This document shows, in pieces, positions 6,701-29,657 of a stretch of 32,000 bases of DNA (position 1 is its first letter; every line of letters starts with the position of its first letter). A model generated the notes under the pieces. It worked only from the letters and a program-made list of their open reading frames with translations, did not search any database and was not told the origin of the DNA. The stretch is from positions 74,746-106,745 of the forward strand of contig NC_015561.1 of assembly GCF_000214175.1 (NCBI RefSeq). The letters are read 5' to 3'. This DNA comes from Hoyosella subflava DQS3-9A1 (GTDB lineage: Bacteria; Actinomycetota; Actinomycetes; Mycobacteriales; Mycobacteriaceae). A program made the translations under genes and the position numbers.

Positions 6701-6735
6701 TCCGGCTTTCCCTATCGTGGCATTGCCTGGAGTGC

Positions 6736-8414: not shown

Positions 8415-8735
8415 ATGACGGAACAGGCAGAGAAGCGCACCTCGCCCGTCGCGCCGGCAACCGAGGGTAAGCTGCGTGAGGCGATGCGGCGACTCCTGAC
8501 CGGGACGGCGACCAAGACCGAGGGCCGCCTGACCAAGGCGAACCTGCACGTCGAGGCGGGGTCAGCCCGCCACCATGAACCGGGCAACGCAGATCACCGC
8601 CGAATGGGACGCCGCCGTCACCGACGCGGCGCCCCGAGAGGCTAAGTACACCAAGCTGGAGGAAGAGATCCAGACCCTCAGACGCACCGTCGCCCGACTC
8701 CGCGAGGAGAATTCGGCCCTGCAGAAGAAAACCAG
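8415..8735 (+). pseudogene. Frameshifted small HTH/coiled-coil gene remnant
   Basis: Frame 1 reads MTEQAEK...[17 protein letters not shown]. This continues sensibly only in another frame as (T)[15 protein letters not shown]...[26 protein letters not shown], a switch near 8571-8577 in the run ccgccacc. The second frame then runs without a stop into hsdM, which creates the artificial 932-aa ORF in the track. Confidence 0.3.
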
Positions 8736-8970
8736 GCCACGATGGCGGTGTTCGCCGACCAACGCGCCCAACTCCTCGCACTCCCAGAGCAGAAAAACCG
8801 ACAGAGTCGGTCGCAGTCCTGTGTGGCCATCGCCAGAAGCGGGAGCGCGGCGCGGCATGAGACCGCGATACAGCCCGCGACGCGACAGCGCAGGGCCGTG
8901 CCCCACACCCGGCCAACCACCACAGCGCGACACCTATACTTTAACGACCCTCACCAGCAAGGATTCCTCT

Positions 8971-12547: not shown

Positions 12548-15500
12548 CTTCCGGCGCCGAATACACGGAGTCCGAGAAGCCGCTACTGGATCAGCTGATC
12601 AGCCTTGGTTGGCTCCATATCGAAGGTTCGAAGTCCGATCCTGGTGTGACTGGCCGTGAGTCGTTTCGAGAGTCGCTCGTCGAAACGACTCTACGAAAAA
12701 TGTTGCGGCAGATTAACCTCGGACCCGACGGCGAGCCGTGGCTGGATGATTTGCGCCTGTCGGAAGCCGTCTCTACCTTGACGCGCACCGAAACGGGCAA
12801 GTTGATCGAGATCAACGAGCGCATGACTGATCGTTTGCTCGAAGGCGTCTCGGTGCCCGGGCTGCCCGATTGGGATCAGGGCCGCAACCAGCGTGTGAAG
12901 TTCATCGACTTCGATCATCCCGAACGAAACGACTTCCTCGCAGTTAATCAGTTCCGGGTCGATGAACCTGGCGGACAAGCCAAGAAGTTCGTTGTGCCGG
13001 ATGTCGTGCTGTTCGTCAATGGCATCCCACTGGTGGTGATCGAGTGCAAAAGCCCGTATGTCACCGACCGTATGGCGGCGGGCATCAATCAGCTGCGCCG
13101 CTACGCTAATCAGCGCGACCTGGGTGCTCCAGAAGGCAACGAGCGACTGTTCTGGACCAATCAGTTCGTTGTCTCGACCTACGGGGATAAAGCACGCGTC
13201 GGTACCTTCACTTCGGGGGCCGAGCACTTCCTGGAATGGAAGGACCCCGCACCGCTGAGCCGCGATCAACTGGCTAAGCAGCTCGGCAAGCCCACAGCGG
13301 AACTGACCGGGCAAGAACTCTTGGTTGCCGGAATGCTCACCCCAGTGAATCTGCTCGACATCGTTCGTCACTACACGCTGTTCACCGAGTTCGGTGGTAG
13401 ACGGGTCAAGCTGGTAGCTCGCTATCAGCAGTTCCGAGCCGTTAGCAAAGCACTCGTTCGTCTCCGCACCGGCAAAACCCGCAAAATTGACGGTGAGCAT
13501 GACCGTCGCGGTGGGCTGGTCTGGCATACCCAGGGGTCGGGCAAGTCCCTGACCATGGTGTTCCTGGTGCGTGCGATGCGGTCCGACCCCGCATTGCGAG
13601 CTTTCAAGGTTGTGATCATTACCGACCGTACTGACCTGGAAAAGCAGTTGGCCGCGACAGCCAAGCTGTCGGGCGAGGCGGTTCAGCGGGCCCGAAAGTC
13701 GTCCAAGCTGCGCACTATGTTGGCCGAGCACGGTCCCGCCCTGGTGTTCGCCATGATCCACAAGTACCGCGACACCGATGCCGCCAATTCCGATGAGGGG
13801 CTTGAGGGTGACGACAAGGCCGAGGCCTTTGGCGTACTTAACACCGATGAGTCGATCGTGATCATGGTCGATGAGGCGCACCGTTCCCAAACCTCCACCT
13901 TGCACGCCAACCTGATGGCGGCACTGCCGAACGCCGCCAAGATCGGCTTCACCGGTACACCGATCATGCGCGCTGGCAAGAAGCGCACCGAATCGGTCTT
14001 TGGTGAGTTCATCGACAAGTACACAATCCGCCAGGCAGAAGCCGACGGTGCAGTGGTCCCGATCTTCTACGAAGGGCGCACAGCAAAGGGTGCGGTGGCC
14101 GGCGGCAGTGACCTCGATGAATTGTTTGAGGATATGTTCGCCGAGCTCAGCGATGCTGAGGTCGAGGAGCTCAAGGCCCGCTACGCCACAACTGGGGCGG
14201 TGGTCGAAGCGCCCAAACTGATCGCAGCGAAGGCGAAGTCAATGCTGTGGCACTACGTCTCGACGGTCATGCCGAACGGATTCAAAGCGCAGGTCACCGC
14301 GTCGAGCCGACTCGCGACGGTGCGCTACCGCGAAGCGCTGATCGCTGCGCGCGACGACCTGGTCGCGCAGATTGAGGCACTGCCAGCCCCTCTGCTCAAC
14401 GCTGATGCAGACGTCGACCAGCTTGACCGCAAGACCCAAGTTCTCGTGCGAGCCGCTGACCAGTTAGAACTGCTCAAGGCACTTGAATTCGTTCCGGTGA
14501 TCTCGGGCAGCAACAACGACGATCCGACGTGGGCGCAGTGGACAGACAAATCACGCCAGGACGCGGTGATCGAGGACTTCAAAAAGAAGCTGGGGTTGCC
14601 CGGCGAGAAGGCCAGCCCGGTCGCATTCCTGATCGTGCGAACAATGCTGCTGACCGGATTCGATGCACCTATCGAGCAGGTTCTCTACCTTGACCGCTCA
14701 ATTCAAGACGCGGAACTATTACAGGCCATCGCCCGTGTGAACCGCACTGCCACCGGCAAATCCGTCGGACTGCTTGTCGATTATTACGGCGTCGGTGCGC
14801 ATCTACAAAAGGCGCTCAGGGCCTATGCGCCAGAAGATGCTGACGATGCGATCGGTGCGCTGGCATCGATCAAAGACGAACTGCCGAAGCTGCGTGACCG
14901 TCACGCACGGGTCATCGCGATCTTCGCTCAGGCTGGAATCGACACATTCGATACTGCACAGGACGTTGAGGCGTGTGTCGAGGTCTTAGCCGACGAGGCG
15001 CTCCGCGCTCGATTCGGTGTTCGGCTCAAGGAGTTCCTATCGACGATGGACACTGTCATGCCGCGTCCCGAGGCCCTGCCGTTCGTCAAGGATGCCAAGC
15101 GGTTAGGCGTCATCTCACTGGCGGCCAAACGGCGATACCGTGACGACGGGCTTGGTGACTTCGACAGCTCGCTATTCGGCGAGAAAGTGCGGAAGTTAAT
15201 CGACGAGCATGTCACCGCGCTTGATATTGCCACGAAAATCCCGCCGGTATCGATCACTGATCCCGACTTCCTCGCCAAGGTGCAGGGTCTTACGTCCGAG
15301 AAGGCCAAAGCCTCGGAGATGGAGCACGCGCTGCGGTACCACATTCGCAAGAATTTCGATGAGGACCCCGCCCGTTACACCAAGCTTTCCGAGCGGCTCG
15401 ACGACATCCTCAACACTCTCACCGGCAAGTGGGACCAGTTGGCCCTGGCGCTTACCGAACTCCTCGATGACGCGCAGGACGACAGCAGCGGCGGCGCCGT

Positions 15501-15816
15501 CCACGAAGACCCGCTGGTTGCGCGGTTCTACGGGTTGCTTGAAGCTGAGTTCGCCACCGATGCGACACTGCCCGACGAGGTGCGGATCGACATTGTTCAC
15601 CTCGCCCAGGACATCGTCGTCGAAATCGAACGAGGCGCGAGCATCGTGCGTTTCTGGCACAACCCGCACGCTCAGGACACACTGCGCAAACAGCTGATCC
15701 ACACACTTGATGACCGCGACCTGTTCCCGTTCGAGGAACAAGAGCCGCTGGCCGACAAGCTGATGGAACTCGCTAAGGCGAACCAGTCGTTGCTCACCTC
15801 CCGGAGGCGGCAATGA
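12544..15816 (+). CDS. hsdR: Type I R-M restriction/helicase subunit HsdR (1090 aa)
   Basis: GTG 12544 overlaps the hsdS stop (GTGA). Walker A GSGKS is at 13534-13548 (WHTQGSGKSLTMVF) and the DEAH box at 13870-13881 (MVDEAHRSQ). Later helicase motifs include ...LLTGFDAP... and ...QAIARVNR... Confidence 0.95.
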   Translation: MTSGAEYTESEKPLLDQLISLGWLHIEGSKSDPGVTGRESFRESLVETTLRKMLRQINLGPDGEPWLDDLRLSEAVSTLTRTETGKLIEINERMTDRLLEGVSVPGLPDWDQGRNQRVKFIDFDHPERNDFLAVNQFRVDEPGGQAKKFVVPDVVLFVNGIPLVVIECKSPYVTDRMAAGINQLRRYANQRDLGAPEGNERLFWTNQFVVSTYGDKARVGTFTSGAEHFLEWKDPAPLSRDQLAKQLGKPTAELTGQELLVAGMLTPVNLLDIVRHYTLFTEFGGRRVKLVARYQQFRAVSKALVRLRTGKTRKIDGEHDRRGGLVWHTQGSGKSLTMVFLVRAMRSDPALRAFKVVIITDRTDLEKQLAATAKLSGEAVQRARKSSKLRTMLAEHGPALVFAMIHKYRDTDAANSDEGLEGDDKAEAFGVLNTDESIVIMVDEAHRSQTSTLHANLMAALPNAAKIGFTGTPIMRAGKKRTESVFGEFIDKYTIRQAEADGAVVPIFYEGRTAKGAVAGGSDLDELFEDMFAELSDAEVEELKARYATTGAVVEAPKLIAAKAKSMLWHYVSTVMPNGFKAQVTASSRLATVRYREALIAARDDLVAQIEALPAPLLNADADVDQLDRKTQVLVRAADQLELLKALEFVPVISGSNNDDPTWAQWTDKSRQDAVIEDFKKKLGLPGEKASPVAFLIVRTMLLTGFDAPIEQVLYLDRSIQDAELLQAIARVNRTATGKSVGLLVDYYGVGAHLQKALRAYAPEDADDAIGALASIKDELPKLRDRHARVIAIFAQAGIDTFDTAQDVEACVEVLADEALRARFGVRLKEFLSTMDTVMPRPEALPFVKDAKRLGVISLAAKRRYRDDGLGDFDSSLFGEKVRKLIDEHVTALDIATKIPPVSITDPDFLAKVQGLTSEKAKASEMEHALRYHIRKNFDEDPARYTKLSERLDDILNTLTGKWDQLALALTELLDDAQDDSSGGAVHEDPLVARFYGLLEAEFATDATLPDEVRIDIVHLAQDIVVEIERGASIVRFWHNPHAQDTLRKQLIHTLDDRDLFPFEEQEPLADKLMELAKANQSLLTSRRRQ

Positions 15817-16541
15817 ACCCCGGCGTCATGACGCTGCGCCTCGACGGGATGTCCGTACCGGTCGACACCGGAGGCAGCAGCCGCAAAGCGAAGCTCACCA
15901 TCGACCGTGATGGCAGCCTGCGCCTGACCGCAGCCCCTGACGTGGAACGCGCTGAGCTGGAGCGATTTTTGGCCTCCAAGCGTGCATGGATCTACGGCAA
16001 GCTCGCCGAGAAGGAAGCTCATAGCCACACGCCCGTCACCAAGGAGTTGGTCAGCGGCGAGGGCTTCCTCTACCTCGGGCGCAGCTACCAACTCCGCATC
16101 ACCGACACCGATGATCACCGCGTGAGCCTGCGGCGCGGCAAGCTGATACTTCCGCGATCGCTCAGCGATTCCGGCCATCAGCACATCATCGCCTGGTATT
16201 GCACGACCGGCCTCGCATGGCTCAAACCGAGAGCCAAGGACTGGGCTGCCCGCCTCCGAGTCGACCCGCAAGCGGTCGAAGTCGCTGACCTCGGCAACAA
16301 GTGGGGAGCCGCACTCCCCAGCGGCCGTGTGCGCATCCACTGGGCAACAATGCAACTCCGCCCCACGCTGGTCGAGTACGTCCTCGCGCACGAACTAGCG
16401 CATCTTCGCGAAGCACATCATGGGCCTGCGTTTTGGCAGCTGCTCGGTCGGGTCATGCCTGACTATGACCAGCGCAAGAAGCAACTCGCCGACACGGGGG
16501 CTTCCTTGTGGCAAGGACATGCGGATCTCCGCAGCTCGTGA
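15813..16541 (+). CDS. YgjP/DUF45-type (M48-like) zinc metallopeptidase, 242 aa
   Basis: ATG 15813 overlaps the hsdR stop (ATGA). HELAH is at 16389-16403 within ...EYVLAHELAHLREAHHGPAFWQLL... This family is a frequent accessory gene downstream of type I hsdR. Confidence 0.8.
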   Translation: MNPGVMTLRLDGMSVPVDTGGSSRKAKLTIDRDGSLRLTAAPDVERAELERFLASKRAWIYGKLAEKEAHSHTPVTKELVSGEGFLYLGRSYQLRITDTDDHRVSLRRGKLILPRSLSDSGHQHIIAWYCTTGLAWLKPRAKDWAARLRVDPQAVEVADLGNKWGAALPSGRVRIHWATMQLRPTLVEYVLAHELAHLREAHHGPAFWQLLGRVMPDYDQRKKQLADTGASLWQGHADLRSS

Positions 16542-16651: not shown

Positions 16652-17146
16652 TTACCCATAGGTTGCAGCTAGCCCTAGAGCAGCAACACCGATGGGTGCG
16701 AGGCTCATCGATATTTGCACGGCCCGGTGCTTCGCCCAGGCGATCTTGCTCATGTCAACTAGCTGCTTTGACAGCACGGGCAGGATAGGGCTGTTCTCCA
16801 GGTGTGCTTGCACAGCGTCAGGCGTCAGTTCTCGCAGGTGCCCGAAGTAAATGAAGTTGTTCTGCGACTCTTTAGCGAGATTCGTCGATCGGAGTCGCGG
16901 GCGGACCACCCATGCTGCAGATGCGACCGCTGCTACAAGCAGCAAGACACCGATGACGTACCAGAACAGCGACCATCCGGTTAGATCGCTAAACACGCGG
17001 CCCTTGCTCGACAGCGCAACTACTCCGGCTAGAACGGCGCTCTCGATCGTTAGGGCGAACGATGCCTTCGTGTCCACTTTGCCGGTCCAGTCGATCAGTG
17101 CCGAGTGGATCCTCCAGCCGGTGCCAACCGGGTCGGAACTGCTCAT
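16652..17146 (-). CDS. pycTM: Pycsar-type small transmembrane effector (164 aa)
   Basis: ATG 17146 overlaps the cyclase stop (ATGA, 17143-17146); the tracked TTG 17158 is less likely. The N-terminus ...HSALIDWTGKVDTKASFALTIESAVLAGVVAL... has the D.KA-type start of the Pycsar effector family. Hydrophobic helices are at FALTIESAVLAGVVAL, LFWYVIGVLLLVAAVASAAWVV and ISMSLAPIGVAALGLAA. Confidence 0.65.
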   Translation of the reverse strand: MSSSDPVGTGWRIHSALIDWTGKVDTKASFALTIESAVLAGVVALSSKGRVFSDLTGWSLFWYVIGVLLLVAAVASAAWVVRPRLRSTNLAKESQNNFIYFGHLRELTPDAVQAHLENSPILPVLSKQLVDMSKIAWAKHRAVQISMSLAPIGVAALGLAATYG

Positions 17147-17874
17147 GAGAATTTCCAAGAGTAGCTGGTCCGGTAGTAGTCATAGTTCTTGCCACCCATT
17201 GTGAGTTGGCAGGTGCCTTTCCACATTTCTTTGCCGTCTGACAGTCGGTGCGATTGCGACAGTCTGCCGTAAGTCCCTTTACCGATTCGTGTGACATACC
17301 CGGCTGCTGCGTTCGCGCGAATGTCGCTCAGCTTGGCTGCTAGGTTGGGCGCTGGCCCGATCGAGATCATGTCATCACTGCCCCGAAACCCTGCGCGAGC
17401 AAGGAGAGTCTCGCCTGTGGCGATTCCGCTGCACTGTTTTAAGGTCCACCCGGCGGATTTGAGACTTGGAAACTCGGAGTGAACTGCAGGTGTGACAAGT
17501 TGGTCGACCGCCCACTTAATTCTCATGGCGGCTTTAACGGCACGGTCTTCCTTGTTTTCTCCCGTGAAGATGCCCATTACCCGATCGCCGTCGAAGCTTC
17601 GAATGTGACCTTCGTGAAAGCGCATGATCTTGGTGCTGACGTTGAGAAAACCTCGGAATACCCGTGCTGCCGCTTCCTTGTCGCCGATCGCGGCGAGACC
17701 CGAAGAGTTGAGCATGTCCGTGTAGAGGTACGTGGCAGAAACCAGCTTTCCCTCTGCAAAGCCCAGGTCGGTCGCCTCCGGCACTGAGGTGCTGGACTCC
17801 TGCTTCTTTGAAACAGACATCACCGGCTTGATCGTTTTGGCAATCTGCGCGTTTACATCGTCCAGCAAACCCAA
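17143..17874 (-). CDS. pycC: Pycsar-type class III nucleotidyl (pyrimidine) cyclase, 243 aa
   Basis: TTG 17874 lies 5 nt after GGAGG. Cyclase-homology features: ...VSATYLYTDMLNSSGLA... (first metal Asp), ...IRSFDGDRVMGIF... (second metal Asp) and ...CSGIATGETLLARAG......ISIGPAPNLAAKL... It is a small stand-alone cyclase directly coupled to a small TM protein, which is the Pycsar architecture. Confidence 0.7.
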   Translation of the reverse strand: MGLLDDVNAQIAKTIKPVMSVSKKQESSTSVPEATDLGFAEGKLVSATYLYTDMLNSSGLAAIGDKEAAARVFRGFLNVSTKIMRFHEGHIRSFDGDRVMGIFTGENKEDRAVKAAMRIKWAVDQLVTPAVHSEFPSLKSAGWTLKQCSGIATGETLLARAGFRGSDDMISIGPAPNLAAKLSDIRANAAAGYVTRIGKGTYGRLSQSHRLSDGKEMWKGTCQLTMGGKNYDYYRTSYSWKFS

Positions 17875-19248: not shown

Positions 19249-19485
19249 ATGAGGACGATCAGCAGCACCGAGGCGAAGACGAAACTCAACGCACTCCTCG
19301 CCGAGGTCGAGGCGACCGGTCAACCGGTGACGATCACCAGCCACGGCCGGCCCGTGGCGATCCTGTCGCCGTCGGCGCCGGCACCGCGCACCTTCGGTCA
19401 GCTCACGGGGAAGATCACCGTTCCCGACGACTTCGACGCACCGCTCGACGAATCTGAGCTCGGCCTCTGGGAAGGCCGCGAGTGA
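19249..19485 (+). CDS. Phd/YefM-family type II antitoxin (78 aa)
   Basis: MRTISSTEAKTKLNALLAEVEATGQPVTITSHGRPVAILSP... is the canonical Phd/YefM N-terminus. Its stop overlaps the toxin start (GTGA). Confidence 0.85.
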   Translation: MRTISSTEAKTKLNALLAEVEATGQPVTITSHGRPVAILSPSAPAPRTFGQLTGKITVPDDFDAPLDESELGLWEGRE

Positions 19486-19895
19486 TCACGCGCACCGTAC
19501 TCCTGGACACAAACGCCTTGCTCTGGCTGACCGCAGCGCCAGAGAAGATGTCGCCACAGGTTCTCGAACTACTCGCCACACCGTCGACCGAACTCGTGGT
19601 ATCGGCCGCGTCCGCCTGGGAAGTCTCGATAAAAACCAGCACCGGCAAACTCCCCGGCGGGCACGCCTTGCTCTCAGTCTGGGGCGAAACCATCATCCAC
19701 CTCCGCGCGGAAACCCTCGCGATCGACAGCGCGGACGCCATCATGGCGGGGGCACTCCCCTGGCCTCACCGCGACCCCTTCGATCGGATGCTCATCACCC
19801 AAGCCGCCCGACGCGCGCTCACCCTCGCGACCAGCGACCCCACCATGATCCAAGGAGCACTCTCGCCGACGATCGATACCAGAAGCGATACCTGA
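19482..19895 (+). CDS. vapC: PIN-domain toxin VapC (137 aa)
   Basis: The acidic PIN residues appear in the expected order: LLDTNALLW, SAASAWEVSIK, DPFDRMLITQA, LATSD. Confidence 0.85.
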   Translation: MITRTVLLDTNALLWLTAAPEKMSPQVLELLATPSTELVVSAASAWEVSIKTSTGKLPGGHALLSVWGETIIHLRAETLAIDSADAIMAGALPWPHRDPFDRMLITQAARRALTLATSDPTMIQGALSPTIDTRSDT

Positions 19896-20100: not shown

Positions 20101-20946
20101 GCCACTGTCACGTTGTTTGCGGAACTTGGCGATTCGAGCCCGTTGGCCGATTTTGCGGGTGGGTGATCGCGGTCGGATGGGTGCCGGTCAGCCGACGGTA
20201 GCCTGCCCGGTGATCTCGGTCCAGACGGCGAAGCGGTCGGCCATCACCTGTCGGTATTCGGTCGCCGAGAGCCGGTGGCGGCGGGTCCGGAAATGCGGTG
20301 AAATTCCCGAGAAAGCGGACAGGAAGCGTTGCGCGTGCCCGGGTGAGGTGAACCGTTTCATCGCCCGCTCCCGGGCGCGGGTCGGTTGATGGGAATTCTC
20401 GGCCCGGTTGTTGAGGTAGCGTGATCGGCGGTGCTCGGCCGACGACACCACCTCGCGGTGCGCCACCTGGTAGCTGCCCAGCTTGTCGGTGATGATCACC
20501 CGCGGCACGTATCGCAGGCCCTTGAGCAGCTTGCGGAAGAACCGCTTGGCCGCCACCGCGTTTCGGCGGGACTGGACCAGCACATCGAGCACGTTGCCGT
20601 CCTGGTCGACCGCGCGCCACAGGTAGTGCTGGGTGCCATTGATGCGGATGAAGACCTCGTCGAGGTACCACTTGTCACCGGGCCGCGCCCGCCGTCGGCG
20701 CAGCTGATTGGCGTAGGCCTGCCCGAACTTGGCGCACCACCGCCGGATCGTCTCGTAGCTGACCACGACACCGCGTTCGAGGATCATCTCCTCGACCTCA
20801 CGGAAGCTGAGCGGGAACCGGAAGTACAACCACACGCAGTGGTTGATGATCTCGCCCGGGTAGCGGTGTCCCTTGTATGACGGCATTGCGGTGTTCACCC
20901 CACGGATCTTCCCAGCGGCCGCGCAGCCCACCAACGTGACAGTGCC
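20101..20946 (-). mobile_element. IS6-family insertion sequence, complete (846 bp)
   Basis: Left end is GCCACTGTCACGTTG... (20101-). The reverse complement of the right end is GGCACTGTCACGTTG... (20946-). That gives about 15-bp IRs (14/15), resembling the GGCACTGTTGCAAA ends of IS26-type elements as I recall them. A single 232-aa transposase lies inside. The flanking octamers differ (TCCGAAAT vs GATATCCC), so there is no target duplication. Confidence 0.85.
20188..20886 (-). CDS. IS6-family DDE transposase (232 aa)
   Basis: MPSYKGHRYPGEIINHCVWLYFRFPLSFREVEEMILERGVVVSYETIRRWCAKFGQAYANQLRRRR.RPGDKWYLDEVFIRING...YLWRAVDQDGNVLD.LV.SRR...AAKRFFRKLLK.....PRVIITDKL.SY...H.........HR.S.YLNNRAENSHQPTR.RER.MK.F.S...AQRFLSAFSGISPHF is the IS6100/IS26-type sequence. 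The tracked ORF (to 21330) extends 148 codons upstream beyond the IR and is not part of the gene. Confidence 0.9.
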   Translation of the reverse strand: MPSYKGHRYPGEIINHCVWLYFRFPLSFREVEEMILERGVVVSYETIRRWCAKFGQAYANQLRRRRARPGDKWYLDEVFIRINGTQHYLWRAVDQDGNVLDVLVQSRRNAVAAKRFFRKLLKGLRYVPRVIITDKLGSYQVAHREVVSSAEHRRSRYLNNRAENSHQPTRARERAMKRFTSPGHAQRFLSAFSGISPHFRTRRHRLSATEYRQVMADRFAVWTEITGQATVG

Positions 20947-21180
20947 GATATCCCCCAGCCAAAACGGCTGCGACACGATGCCGACCACCGAGGCGTCGAA
21001 GTCCAACGCCCCGGCGAGAACCGACACAGCCCTGCCGCCCCCTCGGCGCCGCGGGTGCCGATCGAGGTCGACGGCGGGGAGGTGCCGTGCTGGGCCACAC
21101 CAGGGCCAGCGCGTTGCGGGCAGCGAGGTCGTCGATGCGGTACCTTTCTGCGCCAGCAGCCCGAACGAGGCCGTACTCAT
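20947..21180 (-). pseudogene. Possible 5' remnant of a TnsA-like (Tn7-type) transposition gene, truncated by the IS6 insertion
   Basis: Reading into the IS6 right end: MSTASFGLLAQKG...RAVSVLAGALDFDASVVGIVSQPFWLGDIG|IS6. The LDFD..VVgi.sQPFWL block recalls the N-terminal domain of TnsA-like endonucleases as I remember them. It breaks exactly at the IS boundary. Confidence 0.25.
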
Positions 21181-21440
21181 CTTCTTGCGGCCGGGCTGGT
21201 GGTGTTGTGTCGCTGGTTGGTCTTCGCCGACAGGCTGCTGCGGCGTCTCTTCGTCCTGGTCACGGAGATCATCTCCCCGGTTTCCCGCATAGATTTTTAC
21301 CCTCTGGTGGTTAGCTATGCGAGTCACCAAAATCTTGATCGCTGATTTAAGAACTTACCTTGATGTTTAAGGTGTTGCGGCGTAGTTTAGGGGTCTGTCT
21401 TAAGTCGATAAGATCTAAACTAACGTGATAGGAAGTAACC

Positions 21441-22724
21441 GTGAGCATCACCATTGACCCGCTACGGCTCTCCAAGCCGATCTCCAGCAGCACCTACCTG
21501 GCCATGAGGACAGTCCAGGGCGGCCGCGTCGTCTACTCGACCCGCGTTCCGTTGCTCGATTTGCCTACGATCCTGCCGGTCCCCGACCCGAACGTGGTCG
21601 ACAAGGACAACCGCAAGGTTGACCGCAATCACGCCAAGCAGTTCGGCAAGTACCTCGACGACAAGGAGGAATGGCTGGCCCCGGCCCTCCTTGCTCGGGA
21701 CAACGGCGGCTGTGTCTTCGAGAACGTCCAGGGATCCGACGACGTCGGCTACCTCACCGTCCCGTGGGCGATCGGCGGCGTCGCCTGCCTGTCCACCATC
21801 GACGGTCAGCACCGCGTGTTGGGCGTGGATCTCGAGAAGAGGCGCATCACCAGCGACATCGCCCTCGTCGACCGCAGCATGGCGCGCAAGATCTCCGCGG
21901 AGCGGATGGAGAAGCTGCAAGCCGACCGCGAAAAGCTCGTCGCCCAGATCGGGCGGCTGAAGAGGGAGTACGTTGGCCTGGACATCTACGTCGAACTGGA
22001 CCCGATCAAGCACCGGCAGATGTTCGTCGACGTCGCCGACAACGCCAAGGGCATCAGCAGCGCCGTCCGCGCCCGCTTCGACAACTACAAGGTCGCCAAC
22101 CGCACCCTGGGCGACGTCATGGAACACCCGCTGCTGAAGGGGTGGGTCGACCCCGAACAGGACCGGATGACCCAGAGGAACCCGAACCTGTTGGGCGCCA
22201 AGCATGTCGCCGATATCACTCGGGCCGTCGTCGCCGGAGCCGGTGGCCGGATCAGCAAGAAGGCCGAATCCACGCTGACCGACGCCGAGGTGATCGAACA
22301 GGTCAAGGACTTCCTCGACGTTCTCTCCAACGCCTTCGTCGACTTCGCCACTCTCACGGAAGCCGACCCCGTGGCGGACCGGGAGAGATGGGACGACGGC
22401 AAGGGGGAGCTGACCACGGCCCAGAAGCTGCGCCGCAAGTCGCTGCTCGGCTCGGTGGGTATGCTGCGCGTCCTGGGCGGGGTGTTTCACGACCTGAGGT
22501 CCGGGGATCCGGACACGGCCGATCTCGGCGACGTCACGATGTTCTTCAAGCGCCTCGATCGCCACATGGCCGCCCCGGTCACGGAGACCAGCGTCTGGCG
22601 GACCAGCAACGCGTCCGATGACTTCGAGCCGAATGCGTCTGCGCCGATCATGCGTACCCAGAACATCGTGCACCTGGTGAACGCCATCGTCGGCTGGTAC
22701 AAGAAGCCGCCGACCACACTGTAG
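21441..22724 (+). CDS. DGQHR-domain protein (DndB-like, ParB/Srx-fold), orphan, 427 aa
   Basis: GTG 21441 lies 5 nt after AGGAAG. ...ACLSTIDGQHRVLG... places DGQHR at 21801-21815. Downstream, ...KHRQMFVDVADNAKGIS... fits the Q.F.D.N block of DndB-like proteins. No dndACDE, ssp or dpd genes are anywhere in the window. Confidence 0.8.
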   Translation: MSITIDPLRLSKPISSSTYLAMRTVQGGRVVYSTRVPLLDLPTILPVPDPNVVDKDNRKVDRNHAKQFGKYLDDKEEWLAPALLARDNGGCVFENVQGSDDVGYLTVPWAIGGVACLSTIDGQHRVLGVDLEKRRITSDIALVDRSMARKISAERMEKLQADREKLVAQIGRLKREYVGLDIYVELDPIKHRQMFVDVADNAKGISSAVRARFDNYKVANRTLGDVMEHPLLKGWVDPEQDRMTQRNPNLLGAKHVADITRAVVAGAGGRISKKAESTLTDAEVIEQVKDFLDVLSNAFVDFATLTEADPVADRERWDDGKGELTTAQKLRRKSLLGSVGMLRVLGGVFHDLRSGDPDTADLGDVTMFFKRLDRHMAAPVTETSVWRTSNASDDFEPNASAPIMRTQNIVHLVNAIVGWYKKPPTTL

Positions 22725-22940
22725 GAGGGACACTGCGACCGGTACCGCAGCCCGCGGTGCCCGGTCTCCGTGCAATCGAAGGTGATGATGCAACTGTGCG
22801 GGAACGACGACGGCGGCCGCCGAGTCGGCGCCGACCTTGTGTGCGAATGCGTGGACCGAACTTGGCCACCCGGGTCTGCATGTCTGTGCGTGCGGCGAAT
22901 CGTGGCCCGGATCACCGGGCACGCCCGCCGGGCTTCCTCA

Positions 22941-22986
22941 CCAACGGGCTCGAATCGCCAAGTTCCGCAAACAACGTGACAGTGCC
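22941..22986. repeat. Inverted copy of the IS6 left terminus (46 bp, 45/46 identical to 20101-20146), the end of a truncated second IS6-family copy
   Basis: CCAACGGGCTCGAATCGCCAAGTTCCGCAAACAACGTGACAGTGCC is the reverse complement of 20101-20146 except at one base. Weak transposase C-terminal similarity (...NAWTEL... vs ...AVWTEI...) appears on the + strand around 22840-22860. This suggests a diverged remnant of roughly 200 bp. Confidence 0.8.
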
Positions 22987-23194
22987 CTTCCCGGTGCGCG
23001 AATCCACAGCAGCGCTGCGCCCACTGCGAGATCCCGCAGCCGACAACGACCAGCCATGACAACGGCACCGTCTCGTGAATGTGCACGTGGTTGACGCATC
23101 CGCAGGGGCGATCTTCCCGCCCCCCGAGGTACCGGTGTCGTGGCGCGCGCCTCCTAGGTGTTCAAATGTAGTCACTTGTAATACATTTAGTTCT

Positions 23195-23500
23195 GTGGCG
23201 GAACTCTTCGATCTGGACCTCCTCGATGGAGACGACCCGTTCGAGATCGATGTTCAAGCCGCGCACCTGTTCAAACATCCCCGCTTGGGCATCGCGGACA
23301 TCCACGAGGTCTGGGCATCCGACCCCATGTTTTATCCCGCGAAACTGCCCGCGCACTGGCTGATGGTCGCCGAGGTCCACGGCCAGGTCCTCATGGTCCC
23401 CCTCGCCCCAACCCGGGACGCGAACCCCGCCAAATGCCGCCCCATCGGCTGCTACCAGGCATCCAACCACCTCGCCGACCAGTACCGGAGAGACCGATGA
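23195..23500 (+). CDS. Putative toxin, BrnT(DUF497)-like (101 aa)
   Basis: In-frame GTG 23195 is preferred over the tracked 23075 start. ...DPFEIDVQAAHLFKHPRLGIADIHEVWASDPMFYPA....WLMVAEVHGQVLMVPLAP........RPIGCYQAS... resembles the FEWD...hL.KH.v...e.eevf.dp......r....g...gr.L.Vv......iRiIsar layout of BrnT. Its stop overlaps the start of an RHH gene (ATGA). The family call comes from pattern memory only. Confidence 0.45.
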   Translation: MAELFDLDLLDGDDPFEIDVQAAHLFKHPRLGIADIHEVWASDPMFYPAKLPAHWLMVAEVHGQVLMVPLAPTRDANPAKCRPIGCYQASNHLADQYRRDR

Positions 23501-23718
23501 ACCAGCCCATGACCCCCGACGAGGAATACGACTTCTACGCCCGCCCAGAGAACCAGGAACCGCAAGGCCCCGGGCAACGTCGGCTGACCGCCACCGTGCC
23601 GGTCCGCTTCCCAGCCGACCTACTCGAGAAGATCCGCGCAGCAGCCGCTGCCGACGACCGGTCCGTCTCGGCCTGGATTCGACGCGCCGTCGAGCACGAG
23701 CTCCGCGATTCCGCCTAA
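23497..23718 (+). CDS. Ribbon-helix-helix (CopG/BrnA-like) antitoxin (73 aa)
   Basis: ATG 23497 overlaps the upstream stop. The C-terminal ...RRLTATVPVRFPADLLEKIRAAAAADDRSVSAWIRRAVEHEL... is a classic RHH beta-strand plus two helices. Confidence 0.7.
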   Translation: MNQPMTPDEEYDFYARPENQEPQGPGQRRLTATVPVRFPADLLEKIRAAAAADDRSVSAWIRRAVEHELRDSA

Positions 23719-23958: not shown

Positions 23959-24579
23959 ATGCCACACAACACCCTGCCGACTCTGGGTTCCGATAGAGTT
24001 CTGCGGGTGGGGCACAACATCGGGTACGCGCGGATCTCCACCGCTGATCAGAACCCGCAGCTGCAGCTCGACGCGCTCGGCGCCGCGGACTGCCTCAAGG
24101 TCTACACCGACACCGCGACCGGCACCAAAGCCGACCGCCCACAGTGGAACGCCTGCCTGGCCGACCTTCGCCCCGGCGACACTCTGATCATCTGGAAAAT
24201 CGACAGGCTCGGCCGCAACCTTCGCGACCTGATCGACATCGTGACCAGCCTGCAGACCCGCGGCGTCGGGGTCCGCTCACTGACTAACGGGATCGTGGAC
24301 ACCACCACCGCTCACGGCAAACTCGTCTTCGGCATGTTCGCCCTCATGGCCGAGTACGAGGCAGCCCTCATCAAAGAACGCACCGATGCCGGGCTGGCCG
24401 CCGCTCGCGCCCGAGGCCGCAAAGGCGGGCGCAAAGCGAAAATGACCCCCGCCCTGATCAACAAAGCCCAGCGCATGTACGACGCCCGCCAGTTCACCAT
24501 GACCGAAATCGCCCAGACCTGCGGAGTCACACCGATGACGATCTACAGACACATCAAAACCCGCGCCGCCGCGAACTGA
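23959..24579 (+). CDS. Serine recombinase (resolvase/invertase family), 190-206 aa
   Basis: ...IGYARISTADQNPQLQLDAL......VYTDTATGTKADRPQW...L..LRPGDTLIIWKIDRLGRNLRDLIDIV..L...GV..RSL...IDTTT..GKL.F.MFA..AEYE...IKERT.AGL.AAR.RGR.GGR. is followed by a C-terminal HTH (TMTEIAQTCGVTPMTIYRHI). The start may be GTG 24007, just before IGYARIST. Confidence 0.9.
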   Translation: MPHNTLPTLGSDRVLRVGHNIGYARISTADQNPQLQLDALGAADCLKVYTDTATGTKADRPQWNACLADLRPGDTLIIWKIDRLGRNLRDLIDIVTSLQTRGVGVRSLTNGIVDTTTAHGKLVFGMFALMAEYEAALIKERTDAGLAAARARGRKGGRKAKMTPALINKAQRMYDARQFTMTEIAQTCGVTPMTIYRHIKTRAAAN

Positions 24580-25287: not shown

Positions 25288-26457
25288 TTAGACCAGCTTC
25301 AGCTCGGGCCGGGTGTCACCCTGGCCCAGTAGTAGACGCAGTCTGGGGAGGTTTATCCGGAGCTCGGCGGCAAGCTCTTTGAGCGTCAGTCCGGTCGACT
25401 CGGCCATTTCCAATGCTGAACGGAGTAAGGCCGGTATCTCGCCTGGATAGCCTTGGACCGATTCGTTGACGAACAGTCCCGACGATCTGAGGGTTGCGAG
25501 TCGCTGATGGGCGCGCCGGTAGGTGGCTTCGGAGACTGCGCCGACTTCCTTACATCGGCGTAGGAGAGACTCGACTGACACGCCCCACTGCACGCTCAAC
25601 TCACCGAGTTTCTCGAAATCCAGCCGTAGCGGCAGTAGTGGCGTGATCTCCGCTCGCGGGGTCAGGAACTCTGCGGCGAACGCGTCAGCTTCTCGCTCTT
25701 GCCGTGCATCTCCGGGAAGACAGTCGCTGTGCATCAGCAAGTGCCCCAACTCGTGTGCGGCAGTAAAGCGATGGCGATACACGTCATCCGCTCGATCAGG
25801 CGTGAGTACCACGATGGGTCGTGGCAGCTTCGATGTGGAGAATGCATCGATGTTCTTGGTTGCATTACCGGCGAACGGTGCGAGCGTGACGACGATGCCG
25901 TGCTGCTCCATCATGCGGACCATGCGACTGATCCGGCCTGTGCCCAGCCCCCAATGCTGACGAAGTGCCTGTGCTGCTGTAGTGGGGTCAGTTGGGAAGT
26001 CGGTCTGTTCGACCTCGCCGGCGGAGAATCCGGGTAAATCGATTGCGGGGAATCGGACTCGCTTCTCCAGAGCGTAGGTTAGCTCCCAGACCTGTTCGGT
26101 GAATGAAACAGCTTTGTCCCTCTGGCTAACCGGGGTTCGTCGCAGGCTTCGGAAGTGCGCATCAGCGGCATCCAGACGTGCATACGGGCGACCGGCGGCG
26201 AGGAAGGCGATCGGGACGTCGAGAACCTGAGCGAGCGCCTCGATGTTGTCCGGTCGTGGTTTTGCCGTGCCGGCTTCCCACTGGCCGACGGCGACGGCGG
26301 AAACCCCGAGCTGATCTGCAAGGGCCTTCTTCGTCGCACCGGCAAGACGGCGAGCCTGTGTCAGCCTCGCCGAATCGAAGGCACCGCCGCTAAGCTCTTC
26401 TCCCACCAGATCCGTGTCCGGCACGAGATAAAGCTGACCCGACTCACGCTTACTCAA
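25288..26457 (-). CDS. Fused XRE-family HTH / ImmA-IrrE (COG2856-type) zinc metallopeptidase, 389 aa
   Basis: The N-terminal HTH is ...LTQARRLAGATKKALADQLGVSAVAVGQWEAGTAKPRPDNIEALAQVLDVPIAFL. The peptidase core is ...RFTAAHELGHLLMH...EREADAFAAEFLTP, with HELGH at nt 25741-25755. TTG 26457 overlaps the stop of the upstream gene (TTGA). Confidence 0.85.
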   Translation of the reverse strand: MSKRESGQLYLVPDTDLVGEELSGGAFDSARLTQARRLAGATKKALADQLGVSAVAVGQWEAGTAKPRPDNIEALAQVLDVPIAFLAAGRPYARLDAADAHFRSLRRTPVSQRDKAVSFTEQVWELTYALEKRVRFPAIDLPGFSAGEVEQTDFPTDPTTAAQALRQHWGLGTGRISRMVRMMEQHGIVVTLAPFAGNATKNIDAFSTSKLPRPIVVLTPDRADDVYRHRFTAAHELGHLLMHSDCLPGDARQEREADAFAAEFLTPRAEITPLLPLRLDFEKLGELSVQWGVSVESLLRRCKEVGAVSEATYRRAHQRLATLRSSGLFVNESVQGYPGEIPALLRSALEMAESTGLTLKELAAELRINLPRLRLLLGQGDTRPELKLV

Positions 26458-27269
26458 CTGTCCTCGCTACCCGTGTTCTGTTCATCAGCGTCCTGCTGCT
26501 CCTCCGAGGAGACCTGTTCGTCCGGGCTGCGTATGGACAGATCGAACCCATTTTCGTGCTCGGCGTCCGCGTCGAACCGATCGAGGGACTTGTCATCGTG
26601 GCCGATCACTTTCAGTGTCGGGGCGATTGTTTCGAGGTTCTTTATCGAGTACGGACCTCGGGTCCATGCCAGCTCGCCGGTGTCTTCGTTTACCAGTTCC
26701 GCGTCACCCCAGCCGAAATCGAAAAGACCGTCCGGGGAGGCAGATACCCAGAGCATTACCGTGCGGCCCTTTGCACGTGACATCTGCTCTCGGAACTGCT
26801 CGTCCTCGATGAAATGCTGCTCAAGTTCCTCCTCGGTCATCATTGCGTGCTCGAACGTCATTTGAGGTTCGGCGGACGACGGAGAGAGCGTCATCAGGTG
26901 CGCCTGCAGGCGCGAGGTCTTCCGGAGTTTTGCCTCGGAAATGGGCGTCTTGCCATCGCCGGGCACGCGCCACCAGTACAGGACGACGCCGGTTTGCTGG
27001 ATTACAGGGAGGTCGAACCGGGTGTGTTGCCCCTCGGGCTTAGCAGCTATGATGCCGGGTACACCTTTGAGTTCCCTGAGTAGACCGCGATTCAGATTTA
27101 CACGCAGGGCATTCGAGTAGGCGTCCCGGTCGGGCCAGCCCTGCTCGACATGTGCGCGCAGGGCTGCATCCTGAGCCTCGTTAACTGTCTTGATAAACGC
27201 GTTTCGGATGAACGGAGCGGCGTCGCCAAAACGTTCGATTTCATAGTCGGAAAACTCAGTATGTCTCAA
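26454..27269 (-). CDS. Hypothetical protein with a strongly acidic C-terminal tail (271 aa)
   Basis: ORF track. TTG 27269 lies 4 nt after GGTGG. I recognise no motif. The C-terminus reads ...DADAEHENGFDLSIRSPDEQVSSEEQQDADEQNTGSEDS. It is translationally coupled to the XRE-ImmA gene. Confidence 0.7.
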   Translation of the reverse strand: MRHTEFSDYEIERFGDAAPFIRNAFIKTVNEAQDAALRAHVEQGWPDRDAYSNALRVNLNRGLLRELKGVPGIIAAKPEGQHTRFDLPVIQQTGVVLYWWRVPGDGKTPISEAKLRKTSRLQAHLMTLSPSSAEPQMTFEHAMMTEEELEQHFIEDEQFREQMSRAKGRTVMLWVSASPDGLFDFGWGDAELVNEDTGELAWTRGPYSIKNLETIAPTLKVIGHDDKSLDRFDADAEHENGFDLSIRSPDEQVSSEEQQDADEQNTGSEDS

Positions 27270-27422: not shown

Positions 27423-27969
27423 ATGAGGACACCTGCATTCATTGTGGCGCCTCCGACTGAAGATCTAACCTGCTGGCACCCCGCGCCATGCCGGGCCAGA
27501 GCAACGTCAATGATGAGCTGGCAGACAGCCGATGGCGTACATGAGGGATATGCTGCGATTGAGGTCGCGGGCAGGCGGTTAGTGACCGCGTTCCAGGGCG
27601 ACAGCCTCATCCTTGACGACGAGAACACGGCGGACGTCTCGGCGACAGTTGGGTGGCTGGCACGGTGCACTTGCGGCCCGTTGATGATCGAGCACCTGAC
27701 GGACCGCTACGTTGCCTCAAGCCCCACCAGGTGTATGAGCCCGAAGGCAACCCGCGCCCAAGTGCGTGGAGGACACCTGTCACACCGAGTGGCTTGACCA
27801 TGTCCGGCCGGCCAATCTTGAGCGGCGCGGCGGCCGCCGAGGTGGCGGAAGCGTCCGATCATAGGCTCGACGAAGCCATGGCAGCCGCCCCTGGAACACG
27901 GGATCGTCTTGGTCGGACATTGGCGAAGCCGTCGGAATCAGCAGGCTACGGGCTACGGTAGGTCCGTGA
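27423..27969 (+). pseudogene. Multiply frameshifted gene (Cys-motif N-domain plus C-terminal HTH family) abutting gajA
   Basis: Sensible peptide blocks appear in order but in alternating frames. These are ...IEVAGRRLVTAFQGDSLILDDENTADVSATVGWLARCTCG (frame of 27423), HQVYEPEGNPRPS (27725-27763), VEDTCHTEWLDHVRP (27766-27810), AAAAEVAEASDHRLDEAMAAA (27827-27889) and GSSWSDIGEAVGISR (27901-27945). The last frame ends at TGA 27967-27969, overlapping the gajA GTG. At least four frame switches are needed. Confidence 0.35.
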
Positions 27970-29654: not shown

Positions 29655-29657
29655 GCC

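What the first reader, a model, noticed from the sequence alone, without database searches (positions are those of the whole stretch)
20101..22986. Orphan DGQHR (DndB-like) gene carried between a complete IS6 element and an inverted truncated IS6 end
The 846-bp IS6-family element (20101-20946) and a 46-bp inverted copy of its left terminus (22941-22986, 45/46 identical) bracket a 2-kb segment. Weak transposase-C-terminus similarity lies just inside the inverted copy. The layout is that of a composite transposon whose second IS copy has decayed.

The only intact gene in the segment is a 427-aa DGQHR-domain protein (DGQHR at 21801-21815).

DGQHR/DndB proteins normally belong to multi-gene DNA-modification systems such as Dnd phosphorothioation and related ParB-like components. 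No dnd, ssp or dpd partner is present in 32 kb.

No 8-bp target duplications are present, either around the single IS or around the whole unit. This is consistent with IS26-style cointegrate or deletion history.

A stand-alone, IS-mobilised DGQHR protein in a defence island may act autonomously, as a nuclease, a sensor of modified DNA, or a regulator of a distant system.
Basis: partly seen in the sequence, partly recalled or inferred. Interest (0 to 1): 0.65.

Follow-up and report, generated by a model that had tools for sequence, protein, structure and literature searches.

The report
Stand-alone DndB-like gene beside IS6
A lone relative of the DNA-modification regulator DndB sits with its own conserved promoter between one working IS6 element and a stub of another; the IS layout is ordinary, but the gene belongs to a widespread, unstudied group that normally lives without partners.

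Summary
An 846-bp IS6 element lies at 20101-20946. A 46-bp inverted copy of its transposase-distal end lies at 22941-22986. Between them is one intact gene, a 427-aa DGQHR/DndB-family protein (21441-22724). There are no target-site duplications and no dnd, ssp or dpd genes in the window.

The composite-transposon reading is possible but unproven. The second copy is at most 84 bp, and no other copy of the unit was found.

The "orphan" reading is strongly supported. In 84 related actinobacterial loci no neighbour is conserved, and DNA similarity stops at the stop codon. A complete 38-kb plasmid carries a homologue without dnd genes.

New findings:
- Free-standing copies, including this one, carry a conserved palindrome TTAAGnnCTTA beside the promoter, about 93 nt before the start codon.
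- A confident structure model (pLDDT 95.5) shows a ParB/DUF262-type fold plus a helical domain, with no nuclease or HEPN signature.
- Relatives are fused to primary-type sigma-70 factors at the head of Pgl/BREX-2 operons.
- Other relatives are paired with DNA methyltransferases, or sit just before phage terminase genes.

Best reading: a self-regulated, nucleotide-gated DNA-binding regulator, not a nuclease. Its target is unknown.

The parts
20101..20946 (-). Complete IS6-family insertion sequence (846 bp). The terminal inverted repeats are at 20101-20115 and 20932-20946. The tip next to the transposase 3' end reads GCC instead of the family's GGC.
   Evidence: It is 83-89% identical to IS6 copies on Rhodococcus plasmids.
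20188..20886 (-). IS6 transposase gene (232 aa plus stop).
   Evidence: NF033587 3.2e-67 (226 bits, cut-off 125); Pfam DDE_Tnp_IS240 4.6e-37.
20947..21320 (.). Spacer of unknown origin between the IS and the DGQHR cassette. The in-frame minus-strand ORF here is probably not a gene.
   Evidence: No homologue. No match in related loci. Weak codon-position GC signal. The weak TnsA-like hit, E 1.3e-3 over 18 residues, is rejected.
21347..21357 (+). Operator-like palindrome O1, TTAAGAACTTA, directly upstream of the inferred -35. Its centre is about -42.5 from the inferred transcription start.
   Evidence: It is conserved at -88 to -112 from the start codon. 36 of 83 loci have at most 2 mismatches, against 0 of 166 control windows. 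The exact core occurs in 17 of 83 loci at 91-101 nt.
21360..21388 (+). Inferred promoter: -35 TTGATG (21360-21365), a 17-nt spacer, and -10 TAGTTT (21383-21388, TAnnnT type).
   Evidence: Read from the sequence and from the aligned TAnnnT column in 43 upstream regions. The E. coli-consensus scan found nothing. This is an inference.
21409..21419 (-). Second operator-like site O2 (TTTAGATCTTA on the minus strand, 1 mismatch), in the 5' leader 62 bp from O1.
   Evidence: 4 matches in the window against 1.1 expected, and two of the four are this promoter.
21441..22724 (+). DGQHR/DndB-family protein gene (427 aa, GTG start). DGQHR is encoded at 21801-21815. All family-invariant residues are present.
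22725..22902 (.). Spacer of unknown origin downstream of the gene.
   Evidence: No match in related loci. No terminator-like site.
22903..22986 (+). Remnant of a second IS6 end in inverted orientation. The solid part is 22941-22986. A possible diverged transposase C-terminus lies at 22903-22940.
   Evidence: The tip is an intact GGCACTGTCACGTTG (reverse complement of 22972-22986).

Best explanation
Two things are superimposed here.

(1) Mobile-element scar. An intact IS6 element and a solo, inverted IS6 end flank 2 kb of DNA in a defence island that IS elements have visited repeatedly. The pair may be what is left of two inverted IS copies. Nothing shows that the unit ever moved as one.

(2) The cargo. 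It is a self-contained 1.4-kb cassette (about 21321-22724) made of a palindromic operator, a promoter, a leader and a DndB-family gene. It belongs to a widespread actinobacterial clade that normally has no fixed partner.

Proposed mechanism:
- The protein has a ParB/DUF262-type nucleotide-binding fold with the invariant DGQHR motif, plus an all-helical, arginine-rich C-terminal domain. It has no nuclease signature. This part is shown.
- I infer that it works like DndB, as a nucleotide-gated (ATP/GTP) DNA-binding regulator.
- I infer that it binds as a dimer to TTAAGnnCTTA at about -42 and to a second site in the leader, and so controls its own transcription.
- I infer that it acts in trans on other DNA, probably at or with the RNA polymerase sigma subunit. 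The sigma inference rests on relatives that are physically fused to primary-type sigma-70 factors heading Pgl/BREX-2 operons.
- Its trans target in this genome is unknown. It could be a modification-based defence system, or incoming DNA.

Shown: family membership, the fold, orphan status, motif conservation, the fusions and their genomic contexts. Inferred: DNA binding, autoregulation, nucleotide gating and the link to sigma.
For: IS anatomy.

Family and fold:
- Pfam DndB 2.2e-25 and TIGR03187 above its cut-off.
- AlphaFold model pLDDT 95.5, pTM 0.91.
- Best structural matches are viral DndB-like, GmrSD-N (DUF262) and ParB proteins.
- Invariant residues are P48, R58, Y71, D121, Q123, H124, R125, G128, F195 and R331, across 61 sequences at 26-75% identity to the window protein.

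Orphan clade:
- Homologues of 421 aa at about 75% identity occur in many genera.
- Across 84 loci no neighbour is conserved.
- DNA similarity is confined to the ORF plus about 15 nt upstream.
- The complete plasmid NZ_CP108160.1 has a 52% homologue and no dnd genes.

Operator:
- Its position is fixed and it is far above background.
- The window has two sites bracketing the core promoter.
- Free-standing copies have an AT-rich upstream region with the motif. The 13 copies next to an N6 methyltransferase do not.

Link to transcription and to modification-based defence:
- There are 14 clusters of DndB-like::sigma-70 fusions.
- 4 of 6 inspected fusions lie directly upstream of PglW-PglX-PglY. The other 2 are followed by an overlapping stand-alone DndB-like gene beside a C5 methylase.
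- 12 metagenome loci have a C5 methylase immediately upstream.
- Phage relatives lie just before terL in 29 of 35 viral loci.

Literature:
- DndB/DptB represses dptBCDE (PMC4507180).
- A DndB-like protein binds ATP and GTP, and a ParB-fold::Sigma70 fusion binds ATP (PMC12704722).
Against: - No experiment or direct computation shows that this protein binds DNA or its own promoter. A conserved host factor could read the palindrome instead.
- The promoter is inferred, and the consensus scan found none.
- The sigma fusions are only 36-39% identical to this protein, their upstream regions lack the palindrome, and a fusion does not prove that the free protein contacts sigma.
- No trans target was identified. 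The only other near-match to the motif in the window (5529-5539) is within chance expectation.
- No solved structure resembles the whole protein, so function cannot be transferred from structure.
- The rest of the genome could not be inspected for dnd/ssp/dpd genes.
Confidence: 0.55

Rival explanations
1. Decayed composite transposon. Two inverted IS6 copies once flanked the DGQHR cassette and carried it into this island as a unit. One copy was later deleted down to its outer 46-84 bp.
For: The inverted outer ends are both transposase-distal ends and match at 44/44. The remnant keeps the canonical GGC tip. A collinear trace of a transposase C-terminus lies inside it. The IS6/IS26 family is known to build such units and to leave no duplications after cointegrate or intramolecular events (established knowledge).
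Against: No target duplication surrounds the unit. The inner flanks (20947-21320 and 22725-22902) are unrelated to anything. No other copy of the unit or of its junctions was found in plasmids, genomes or metagenomes. None of the 84 related loci has IS6 next to the gene. The trace at 22903-22924 is offset by 38 bp from the intact IS, so the remnant may come from a different IS6 isoform.
Confidence: 0.25
2. Autonomous single-gene defence effector. The DGQHR domain senses modified or foreign DNA, as the DUF262 domain does in GmrSD, BrxU and SspE. The C-terminal domain then damages nucleic acid or aborts infection.
For: The gene lies in a defence island. Some neighbours in other genomes are defence genes, including GmrSD_N, MrcB_N, RmrA, BrxH and type I methyltransferases. 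There is structural kinship to GmrSD N-terminal domains. Makarova et al. 2013 (PMC3632139) describe DndB as ParB-like plus HEPN. The clade uses weak start codons (GTG, TTG, ATC, CTG), as tightly limited proteins often do.
Against: No nuclease, HNH, PD-(D/E)xK or HEPN family hit was found, even at E 10. The R405-x5-H411 motif is not conserved, with H411 replaced by A, Q, G or K in most relatives. The only PADLOC hit is DndB. Fusion partners are sigma factors, not effectors.
Confidence: 0.15
3. Displaced canonical partner. The gene serves a DNA-modification system elsewhere in the same genome (dnd, ssp, dpd, or the type I RM at 8575-16541) and only looks orphaned because the island was rearranged.
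For: 13 of 83 clade members sit next to an N6 methyltransferase, with type I RM genes or with kinase and helicase genes. Relatives pair with C5 methylases and Pgl systems. A type I RM lies 5 kb away in the window.
Against: Most clade members have no such neighbour and carry their own conserved promoter and operator, which the methyltransferase-linked copies lack. The TIGR03233 DndB equivalog score is 22.5 against a cut-off of 328. A complete plasmid carries a homologue alone.
Confidence: 0.2

Closest known systems
DndB / DptB of the Dnd phosphorothioation system (Salmonella enterica Cerro 87, Streptomyces lividans)
   Same: Same Pfam family (PF14072), the same DGQHR motif and a similar length. 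The architecture is also the same: a ParB-like domain plus a helical C-terminal domain. DndB is a DNA-binding repressor acting at its own operon's promoter (PMC4507180). This gene likewise has a conserved palindrome at its own promoter.
   Different: It fails the DndB equivalog model (22.5 against 328 bits). It has no dndCDE neighbour here or in 84 related loci. It occurs as a one-gene cassette, and its operator sequence is different. DNA binding has not been tested.
ParB-CTPase-fold fusion proteins surveyed in PNAS 2025 (PMC12704722): the 'DndB-like' protein and the ParB-fold::Sigma70 fusion
   Same: The same fold class. That paper reports ATP/GTP binding for a DndB-like protein and ATP binding for a Sigma70 fusion. 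The window protein's relatives include 14 clusters of DndB-like::sigma-70 fusions.
   Different: The window protein is not fused. The paper gives no function, operator or genomic context. It is not known whether the proteins it tested belong to this clade.
DUF262 (GmrS-like) domains of GmrSD, BrxU and SspE type IV restriction enzymes
   Same: A related ParB/Srx-type NTPase fold with a DGQ(Q/H)R motif and a following F..N..G motif. The best structural matches in the viral library include GmrSD N-terminal domain proteins.
   Different: There is no DUF1524/HNH nuclease domain. The C-terminal half is an unrelated helical domain. Foldseek found no significant match to any solved structure, including these enzymes.
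IS26/IS6-family pseudo-compound transposons
   Same: An IS6-family element with a second IS6 end flanks a passenger gene. The absence of 8-bp duplications is common after IS26-type cointegrate or intramolecular reactions.
   Different: The second copy is a 46-84-bp stub, and the copies are inverted rather than direct. The intact copy has a mutated terminal dinucleotide. There is no evidence of movement.

Membership tests
IS6 family insertion sequence | DDE transposase of the IS6 family as the single ORF | tested here: met
   NF033587, 226 bits (cut-off 125); PF13610 4.6e-37.
IS6 family insertion sequence | Short terminal inverted repeats starting with GG, and an element of about 0.7-0.9 kb | tested here: met
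   846 bp with 15-bp inverted repeats. One tip reads GCC instead of GGC.
IS6 family insertion sequence | 8-bp target-site duplication | tested here: not met
   Flanks are TCCGAAAT and GATATCCC. Absence is common in this family after cointegrate or deletion events.
Composite (compound) transposon | Two IS copies flanking the passenger | tested here: not met
   Only 46 bp (at most 84 bp) of a second copy, with no transposase remnant.
Composite (compound) transposon | Target duplication around the whole unit | tested here: not met
   TCCGAAAT against CTTCCCGG.
Composite (compound) transposon | The same unit found at other sites | tested here: inconclusive
   None in PLSDB, 84 genome loci or 77 metagenome loci. 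No close relative of this replicon was available.
DGQHR-domain / Pfam DndB family | Profile match above the curated cut-off, with the DGQHR motif | tested here: met
   PF14072, 89.9 bits (cut-off 29.1); TIGR03187, 73.4 bits (cut-off 58.85); motif at residues 121-125.
DndB proper (Dnd system component, TIGR03233 equivalog) | Equivalog-level sequence score | tested here: not met
   22.5 bits against a cut-off of 328.
DndB proper (Dnd system component, TIGR03233 equivalog) | Encoded with dndCDE (and dndA/iscS) | tested here: not met
   None in the 32-kb window. None among the neighbours in 84 related loci. None on plasmid NZ_CP108160.1. The rest of this genome was not available.
DndB proper (Dnd system component, TIGR03233 equivalog) | Binds and represses its own operon's promoter | not testable with these tools
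   Only indirect support: a conserved palindrome at about -42 and a second site in the leader.
GmrSD / BrxU / SspE-type DUF262 restriction enzymes | C-terminal DUF1524/HNH nuclease domain | tested here: not met
   No Pfam hit in residues 243-427 other than a weak DndB match, even at E 10.
HEPN ribonucleases (proposed for the DndB C-terminus by Makarova 2013) | Conserved R-x4-6-H motif at the start of the last helix | tested here: not met
   R405 is conserved (53 of 61), but H411 is variable (A14, Q8, G8, K5, E5). No HEPN family hit.
ParB-CTPase-fold nucleotide switches | Conserved nucleotide-binding motifs of the fold (Box II-like arginine motif) | tested here: met
   D121, Q123, H124, R125, G128 and R58 are invariant, and N57 is near-invariant (57 of 61), across 61 diverse relatives. 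Weak structural matches to ParB-like PadC and pNOB8 ParB-N.
ParB-CTPase-fold nucleotide switches | Binds or hydrolyses an NTP | not testable with these tools
   Reported for a DndB-like protein (ATP/GTP) in PMC12704722. Not tested for this clade.

The most novel reading that the evidence does not exclude
The free-standing DndB-family cassette is an autonomous, portable transcription-level immune or regulatory module. In this reading, a nucleotide-gated ParB-fold protein docks on the host's primary sigma factor or RNA polymerase, the arrangement that is hard-wired in the sigma-70 fusions heading Pgl operons. It would then switch transcription of foreign DNA, or of modification-based defence genes, according to DNA or nucleotide state. 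Phage relatives placed just before the terminase genes would use the same device to time late transcription.
Probability: 0.2. Interest if true: 0.75.

Novelty: new variant of a known kind. Interest (0 to 1): 0.45.

Why it matters
NCBI names many of these proteins "DNA sulfur modification protein DndB", which suggests phosphorothioation where no dnd genes are nearby.

Three results make the function testable:
- A large clade lives alone with its own conserved operator and promoter.
- Close relatives are welded to primary-type sigma factors in front of Pgl/BREX-2 operons.
- Phage relatives occupy the slot just before the terminase.

The test system is small: one gene, one 100-bp promoter and one motif. 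A positive result would link the ParB-fold nucleotide switches to transcription control in anti-phage defence.

The IS6 bracket itself is routine island wear and matters little.

Tried and rejected
- HEPN RNase C-terminus. The window protein has R405-x5-H411 at the start of its last helix, but H411 is not conserved and no HEPN profile hits. Rejected.
- Truncated TnsA-like gene at 20947-21330. It rested on an 18-residue NCBIfam hit at E 1.3e-3. There is no homologue in plasmids, in related loci or in 5.8 billion proteins, and the coding signal is weak. Rejected.
- Structured 5' leader or riboswitch. Rfam found nothing, and RNAalifold gave no consensus structure on 35 leaders. Some leaders have CCUCC...GGAGG hairpins, but this is not general.
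- First structure prediction with 17 close homologues failed (pLDDT 43). It succeeded with 61 diverse relatives.
- Solved-structure relatives. None by sequence and none by fold.
- Empty-site or sister-replicon comparison. No plasmid shares the flanks beyond generic VapBC or resolvase similarity. The window's own protein is not indexed for contig look-up.
- The palindrome is absent upstream of the sigma-70 fusions.
- No further convincing operator sites were found in the window.
- The E. coli-type promoter and terminator scan found nothing in 20900-23100.
Full report
**1. The observation**

- An 846-bp IS6-family element occupies 20101-20946.
- Its 232-aa transposase lies on the minus strand. 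It matches NF033587 at 226 bits against a cut-off of 125, and DDE_Tnp_IS240 at 4.6e-37.
- The 15-bp terminal inverted repeats are at 20101-20115 and 20932-20946.
- Alignment with an IS6 copy from a Rhodococcus rhodochrous plasmid places both ends at exactly these bases.
- The best matches anywhere are IS6 copies on Rhodococcus plasmids, at 83-89% identity.

A copy of the transposase-distal end lies inverted at 22941-22986.

- IS positions 3-46 match at 44/44, E 1.4e-17 within the window. Overall the match is 45/46.
- The one difference is the second base of the intact element. It reads GCC, whereas the remnant and the Rhodococcus relative read the family-typical GGC.
- Inside the remnant there is only a 23-nt, 87% match (22903-22924). 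It would encode ..ITGHA.. against ..ITGQA.. in the transposase C-terminus.
- That match is collinear but offset by 38 bp, and it is not significant alone.
- No other trace of a transposase is present.
- The 8-bp flanks (TCCGAAAT, GATATCCC, CTTCCCGG) show no duplication around the IS or around the unit.

The single intact gene between the ends runs from GTG 21441 to the stop at 22722-22724 and encodes 427 aa.

- DGQHR is encoded at 21801-21815.
- The minus-strand ORF that runs in frame out of the IS (20947-21330) gave a weak TnsA-like hit.
- That ORF has no homologue in plasmids, in related loci or in 5.8 billion proteins. Its codon-position GC signal is weak. I treat it as non-coding.

**2. 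Surroundings**

The window is a defence island with several mobile-element scars:

- IS256 transposase, 2984-4246
- an Abi-family gene, 6736-7584
- type I RM with a YgjP-like gene, 8575-16541
- Pycsar cyclase and effector, 16652-17874
- VapBC, 19249-19895
- a serine recombinase, 23959-24579
- RosmerTA, 25288-27269
- Gabija, 27909-31415

No dnd, ssp or dpd component was detected. The stretches not scanned are too short to hold such a cluster.

**3. What the protein is**

By sequence:

- It matches Pfam DndB at 2.2e-25 and the TIGR03187 DGQHR domain above its cut-off.
- It scores only 22.5 bits against the DndB equivalog TIGR03233, whose cut-off is 328.
- PADLOC returns only a partial DndB match.
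- It is therefore a member of the DGQHR/DndB family, but not a canonical DndB.

By structure:

- A model built on 61 diverse relatives is confident (pLDDT 95.5, pTM 0.91).
- The model shows an N-terminal mixed alpha/beta domain that leads into DGQHR at the start of a long helical hairpin (residues 123-175).
- A second conserved block follows (FVDVADNAKG, residues 195-204).
- The C-terminal half is all-helical.
- No solved structure resembles it. Only weak ParB-like matches appear: PadC and pNOB8 ParB-N.
- In the viral library the best matches are DndB-like, GmrSD-N (DUF262) and ParB proteins.

Conserved residues:

- Invariant across relatives at 26-75% identity: P48, R58, Y71, D121, Q123, H124, R125, G128, F195 and R331.
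- Near-invariant: N57, D197, N201, A202, G204, D214, R221, R261, G266, G269, R270, S338, R343, W386 and P402.
- The nucleotide-binding motifs of the fold are therefore intact.

The HEPN idea (Makarova 2013, PMC3632139) does not hold for this family. H411 of the R405-x5-H411 motif is variable, and no HEPN or nuclease profile hits even at E 10.

**4. It is one of a clade of orphans**

- Homologues of 421 aa at about 75% identity occur in Frankia, Nocardia, Streptomyces, Saccharothrix, Micromonospora, Arthrobacter, Rhodococcus, Mycolicibacterium and others.
- Across 84 fetched loci, all-against-all clustering of ORFs within 8 kb found no neighbour family in more than 14 of 85 loci.
- Among 149 immediate neighbours, no Pfam family occurs more than three times.
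- Those neighbours are a mix of resolvases, integrases, Tn3 transposases, methyltransferases, GmrSD-N, MrcB-N, RmrA and unrelated genes.
- Nucleotide similarity between the window and these loci starts about 15 nt before the start codon and ends at the stop codon. The same holds for a 74%-identical copy on a viral contig.
- A complete 38-kb Streptomyces plasmid carries a 52% homologue beside an integrase, with no dnd genes.
- IS6 is not a neighbour in any other locus.

**5. A conserved control region**

Although BLAST sees nothing upstream, 43 distinct upstream regions align. They share these elements:

- a palindrome, TTAAG(A/T)(A/T)CTTA
- a variable -35
- a TAnnnT -10
- a leader of 50-60 nt
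- a purine-rich ribosome-binding site

Support for the palindrome:

- The exact core TAAGnnCTTA occurs in 17 of 83 distinct loci, always 91-101 nt before the start codon. The background rate is 1.3e-4 per 200 nt in the rest of the loci.
- Allowing up to 2 mismatches of 9 fixed positions, 36 of 83 loci have it in the expected 25-nt window. None of 166 control windows do.

In the window:

- Site O1 is at 21347-21357, immediately before TTGATG-17 nt-TAGTTT. Its centre is about -42.5 from the inferred transcription start.
- A second site with one mismatch, O2, lies 62 bp downstream in the leader, at 21409-21419.

The clade exists in two states:

- 13 loci sit next to a PDLC03037-type N6 methyltransferase. 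In Streptomyces it comes with type I RM genes, and in Nocardia with a Ser/Thr kinase and an SNF2 helicase. Their upstream DNA is GC-rich (mean 0.69) and lacks the motif.
- The other 70 loci have AT-rich upstream DNA (mean 0.50). All 36 motif-bearing loci are among them.
- The window copy is of the free-standing type, with an exact motif.

The leader shows no consensus RNA structure and no Rfam match.

**6. The wider family points to transcription and DNA-modification defence**

A full scan of 1.84 billion representative proteins found 392 clusters at E up to 1e-3. Most are full-length proteins of 410-480 aa.

Sigma fusions:

- Eight of the ten longest hits are the whole DndB-like protein fused to a complete sigma-70 factor with regions 1.2, 2, 3 and 4.
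- The sigma part is about 52% identical to actinobacterial primary sigma factors.
- 14 such clusters were listed, including proteins from Cellulomonas sp. HZM and Promicromonospora sp. NFX87.
- In four of six inspected loci, the fusion gene lies directly upstream of PglW (NERD plus kinase), PglX (MmeI-type methyltransferase) and PglY. That is a Pgl/BREX type 2 system.
- In the other two loci, the fusion is followed by an overlapping stand-alone DndB-like gene, beside a C5 methylase and DUF1156/DUF499 genes.

Other contexts:

- Twelve metagenome loci have a C5 methylase immediately upstream of the DndB-like gene.
- Thirty-five viral contigs encode full-length relatives at 30-37% identity. In 29 of them the gene is followed by a 170-aa ORF, the large terminase, portal, protease and capsid genes.

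Literature:

- DndB/DptB represses the dpt operon (PMC4507180).
- A DndB-like protein binds ATP and GTP, and a ParB-fold::Sigma70 fusion binds ATP (PMC12704722).
- The 2026 BREX survey (PMC12839542) has no passage linking a sigma factor to DndB or to a ParB-fold fusion.

**7. Explanation**

- The IS layout is real but incidental. It is a working-looking IS6 (with one mutated tip) and a solo end in a much-rearranged island.
- The layout may descend from two inverted copies, but nothing shows that the unit moved.
- The cargo is a self-contained operator-promoter-gene cassette of the DndB family.
- The best-supported mechanism is a nucleotide-gated, dimeric DNA-binding regulator. It would control its own promoter through O1 and O2, and act in trans, plausibly at or with sigma and RNA polymerase.
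- The shown steps are family membership, the fold, the absence of a nuclease signature, orphan status, motif conservation, and the fusions and their contexts.
- The inferred steps are DNA binding, autoregulation, nucleotide gating and sigma contact.
- The trans target is unknown.

**8. Verdict**

- Observation: confirmed.
- Novelty: a new variant of a known kind, namely a partner-less, self-regulated DndB-family cassette.
- Interest: moderate. It comes from the gene family, not from the IS bracket.

Noticed in passing
L200:10001-12259, L202:10001-12703, L204:6509-8842, L205:4282-6753: Whole DndB-like proteins fused to a complete primary-type sigma-70 factor lie directly upstream of PglW (NERD plus kinase), PglX and PglY. 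They look like dedicated sigma factors at the head of Pgl/BREX type 2 operons. The 2026 BREX survey has no passage linking a sigma factor to DndB or a ParB-fold fusion.
   Followed up: partly
L201:10001-13818, L203:10001-14643: The sigma-70 fusion gene is followed by an overlapping stand-alone DndB-like gene (420-430 aa), next to a C5 DNA methylase and DUF1156/DUF499 (DISARM-like) genes.
   Followed up: partly
L164-L197 (IMG/VR contigs), e.g. L106:9352-15025: Phage and prophage relatives (30-37% identity, full length) sit immediately before a 170-aa ORF, the large terminase, portal, protease and capsid genes in 29 of 35 viral loci. From general knowledge of phage genome layout, this is the slot usually held by late-gene activators or terminase-associated nucleases.
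   Followed up: partly
L059, L064, L065, L068, L070-L073, L079 (Streptomyces); L001, L035, L048, L052 (Nocardia): In 13 loci the DGQHR gene lies next to a 690-830-aa N6 methyltransferase (PADLOC PDLC03037 type, with mad1/mad2-like parts). It comes with type I RM genes, or with a Ser/Thr kinase and an SNF2 helicase. These copies lack the AT-rich operator and promoter found at free-standing copies.
   Followed up: partly
L008, L021, L027, L030, L039 (ATC); L051 (CTG), at the aligned start codon: Several clade members have ATC or CTG where the others have GTG, ATG or TTG. This suggests selection for weak translation initiation.
   Followed up: no
window 20101-20103 versus 22984-22986: The intact IS6 has GCC at its transposase-distal tip. 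The remnant and a Rhodococcus relative have the family-typical GGC. The complete copy may therefore be impaired at one end.
   Followed up: partly
window 8575-11373: The type I methyltransferase subunit is unusually long at 932 aa. It has about 140 residues before the HsdM N-terminal domain and about 330 after the methylase domain.
   Followed up: no
window 23075-23718: A 141-aa ORF with no family match overlaps a 94-aa ribbon-helix-helix protein, just outside the IS remnant and before the serine recombinase. This may be an uncharacterised toxin-antitoxin pair.
   Followed up: no
window 2984-4246 and 5300-7584: There is an IS256-family transposase (81% identical to Rhodococcus copies), a 466-aa hypothetical protein common on actinobacterial plasmids, and an Abi-family protein. 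Both IS elements point to a Rhodococcus-like host.
   Followed up: partly
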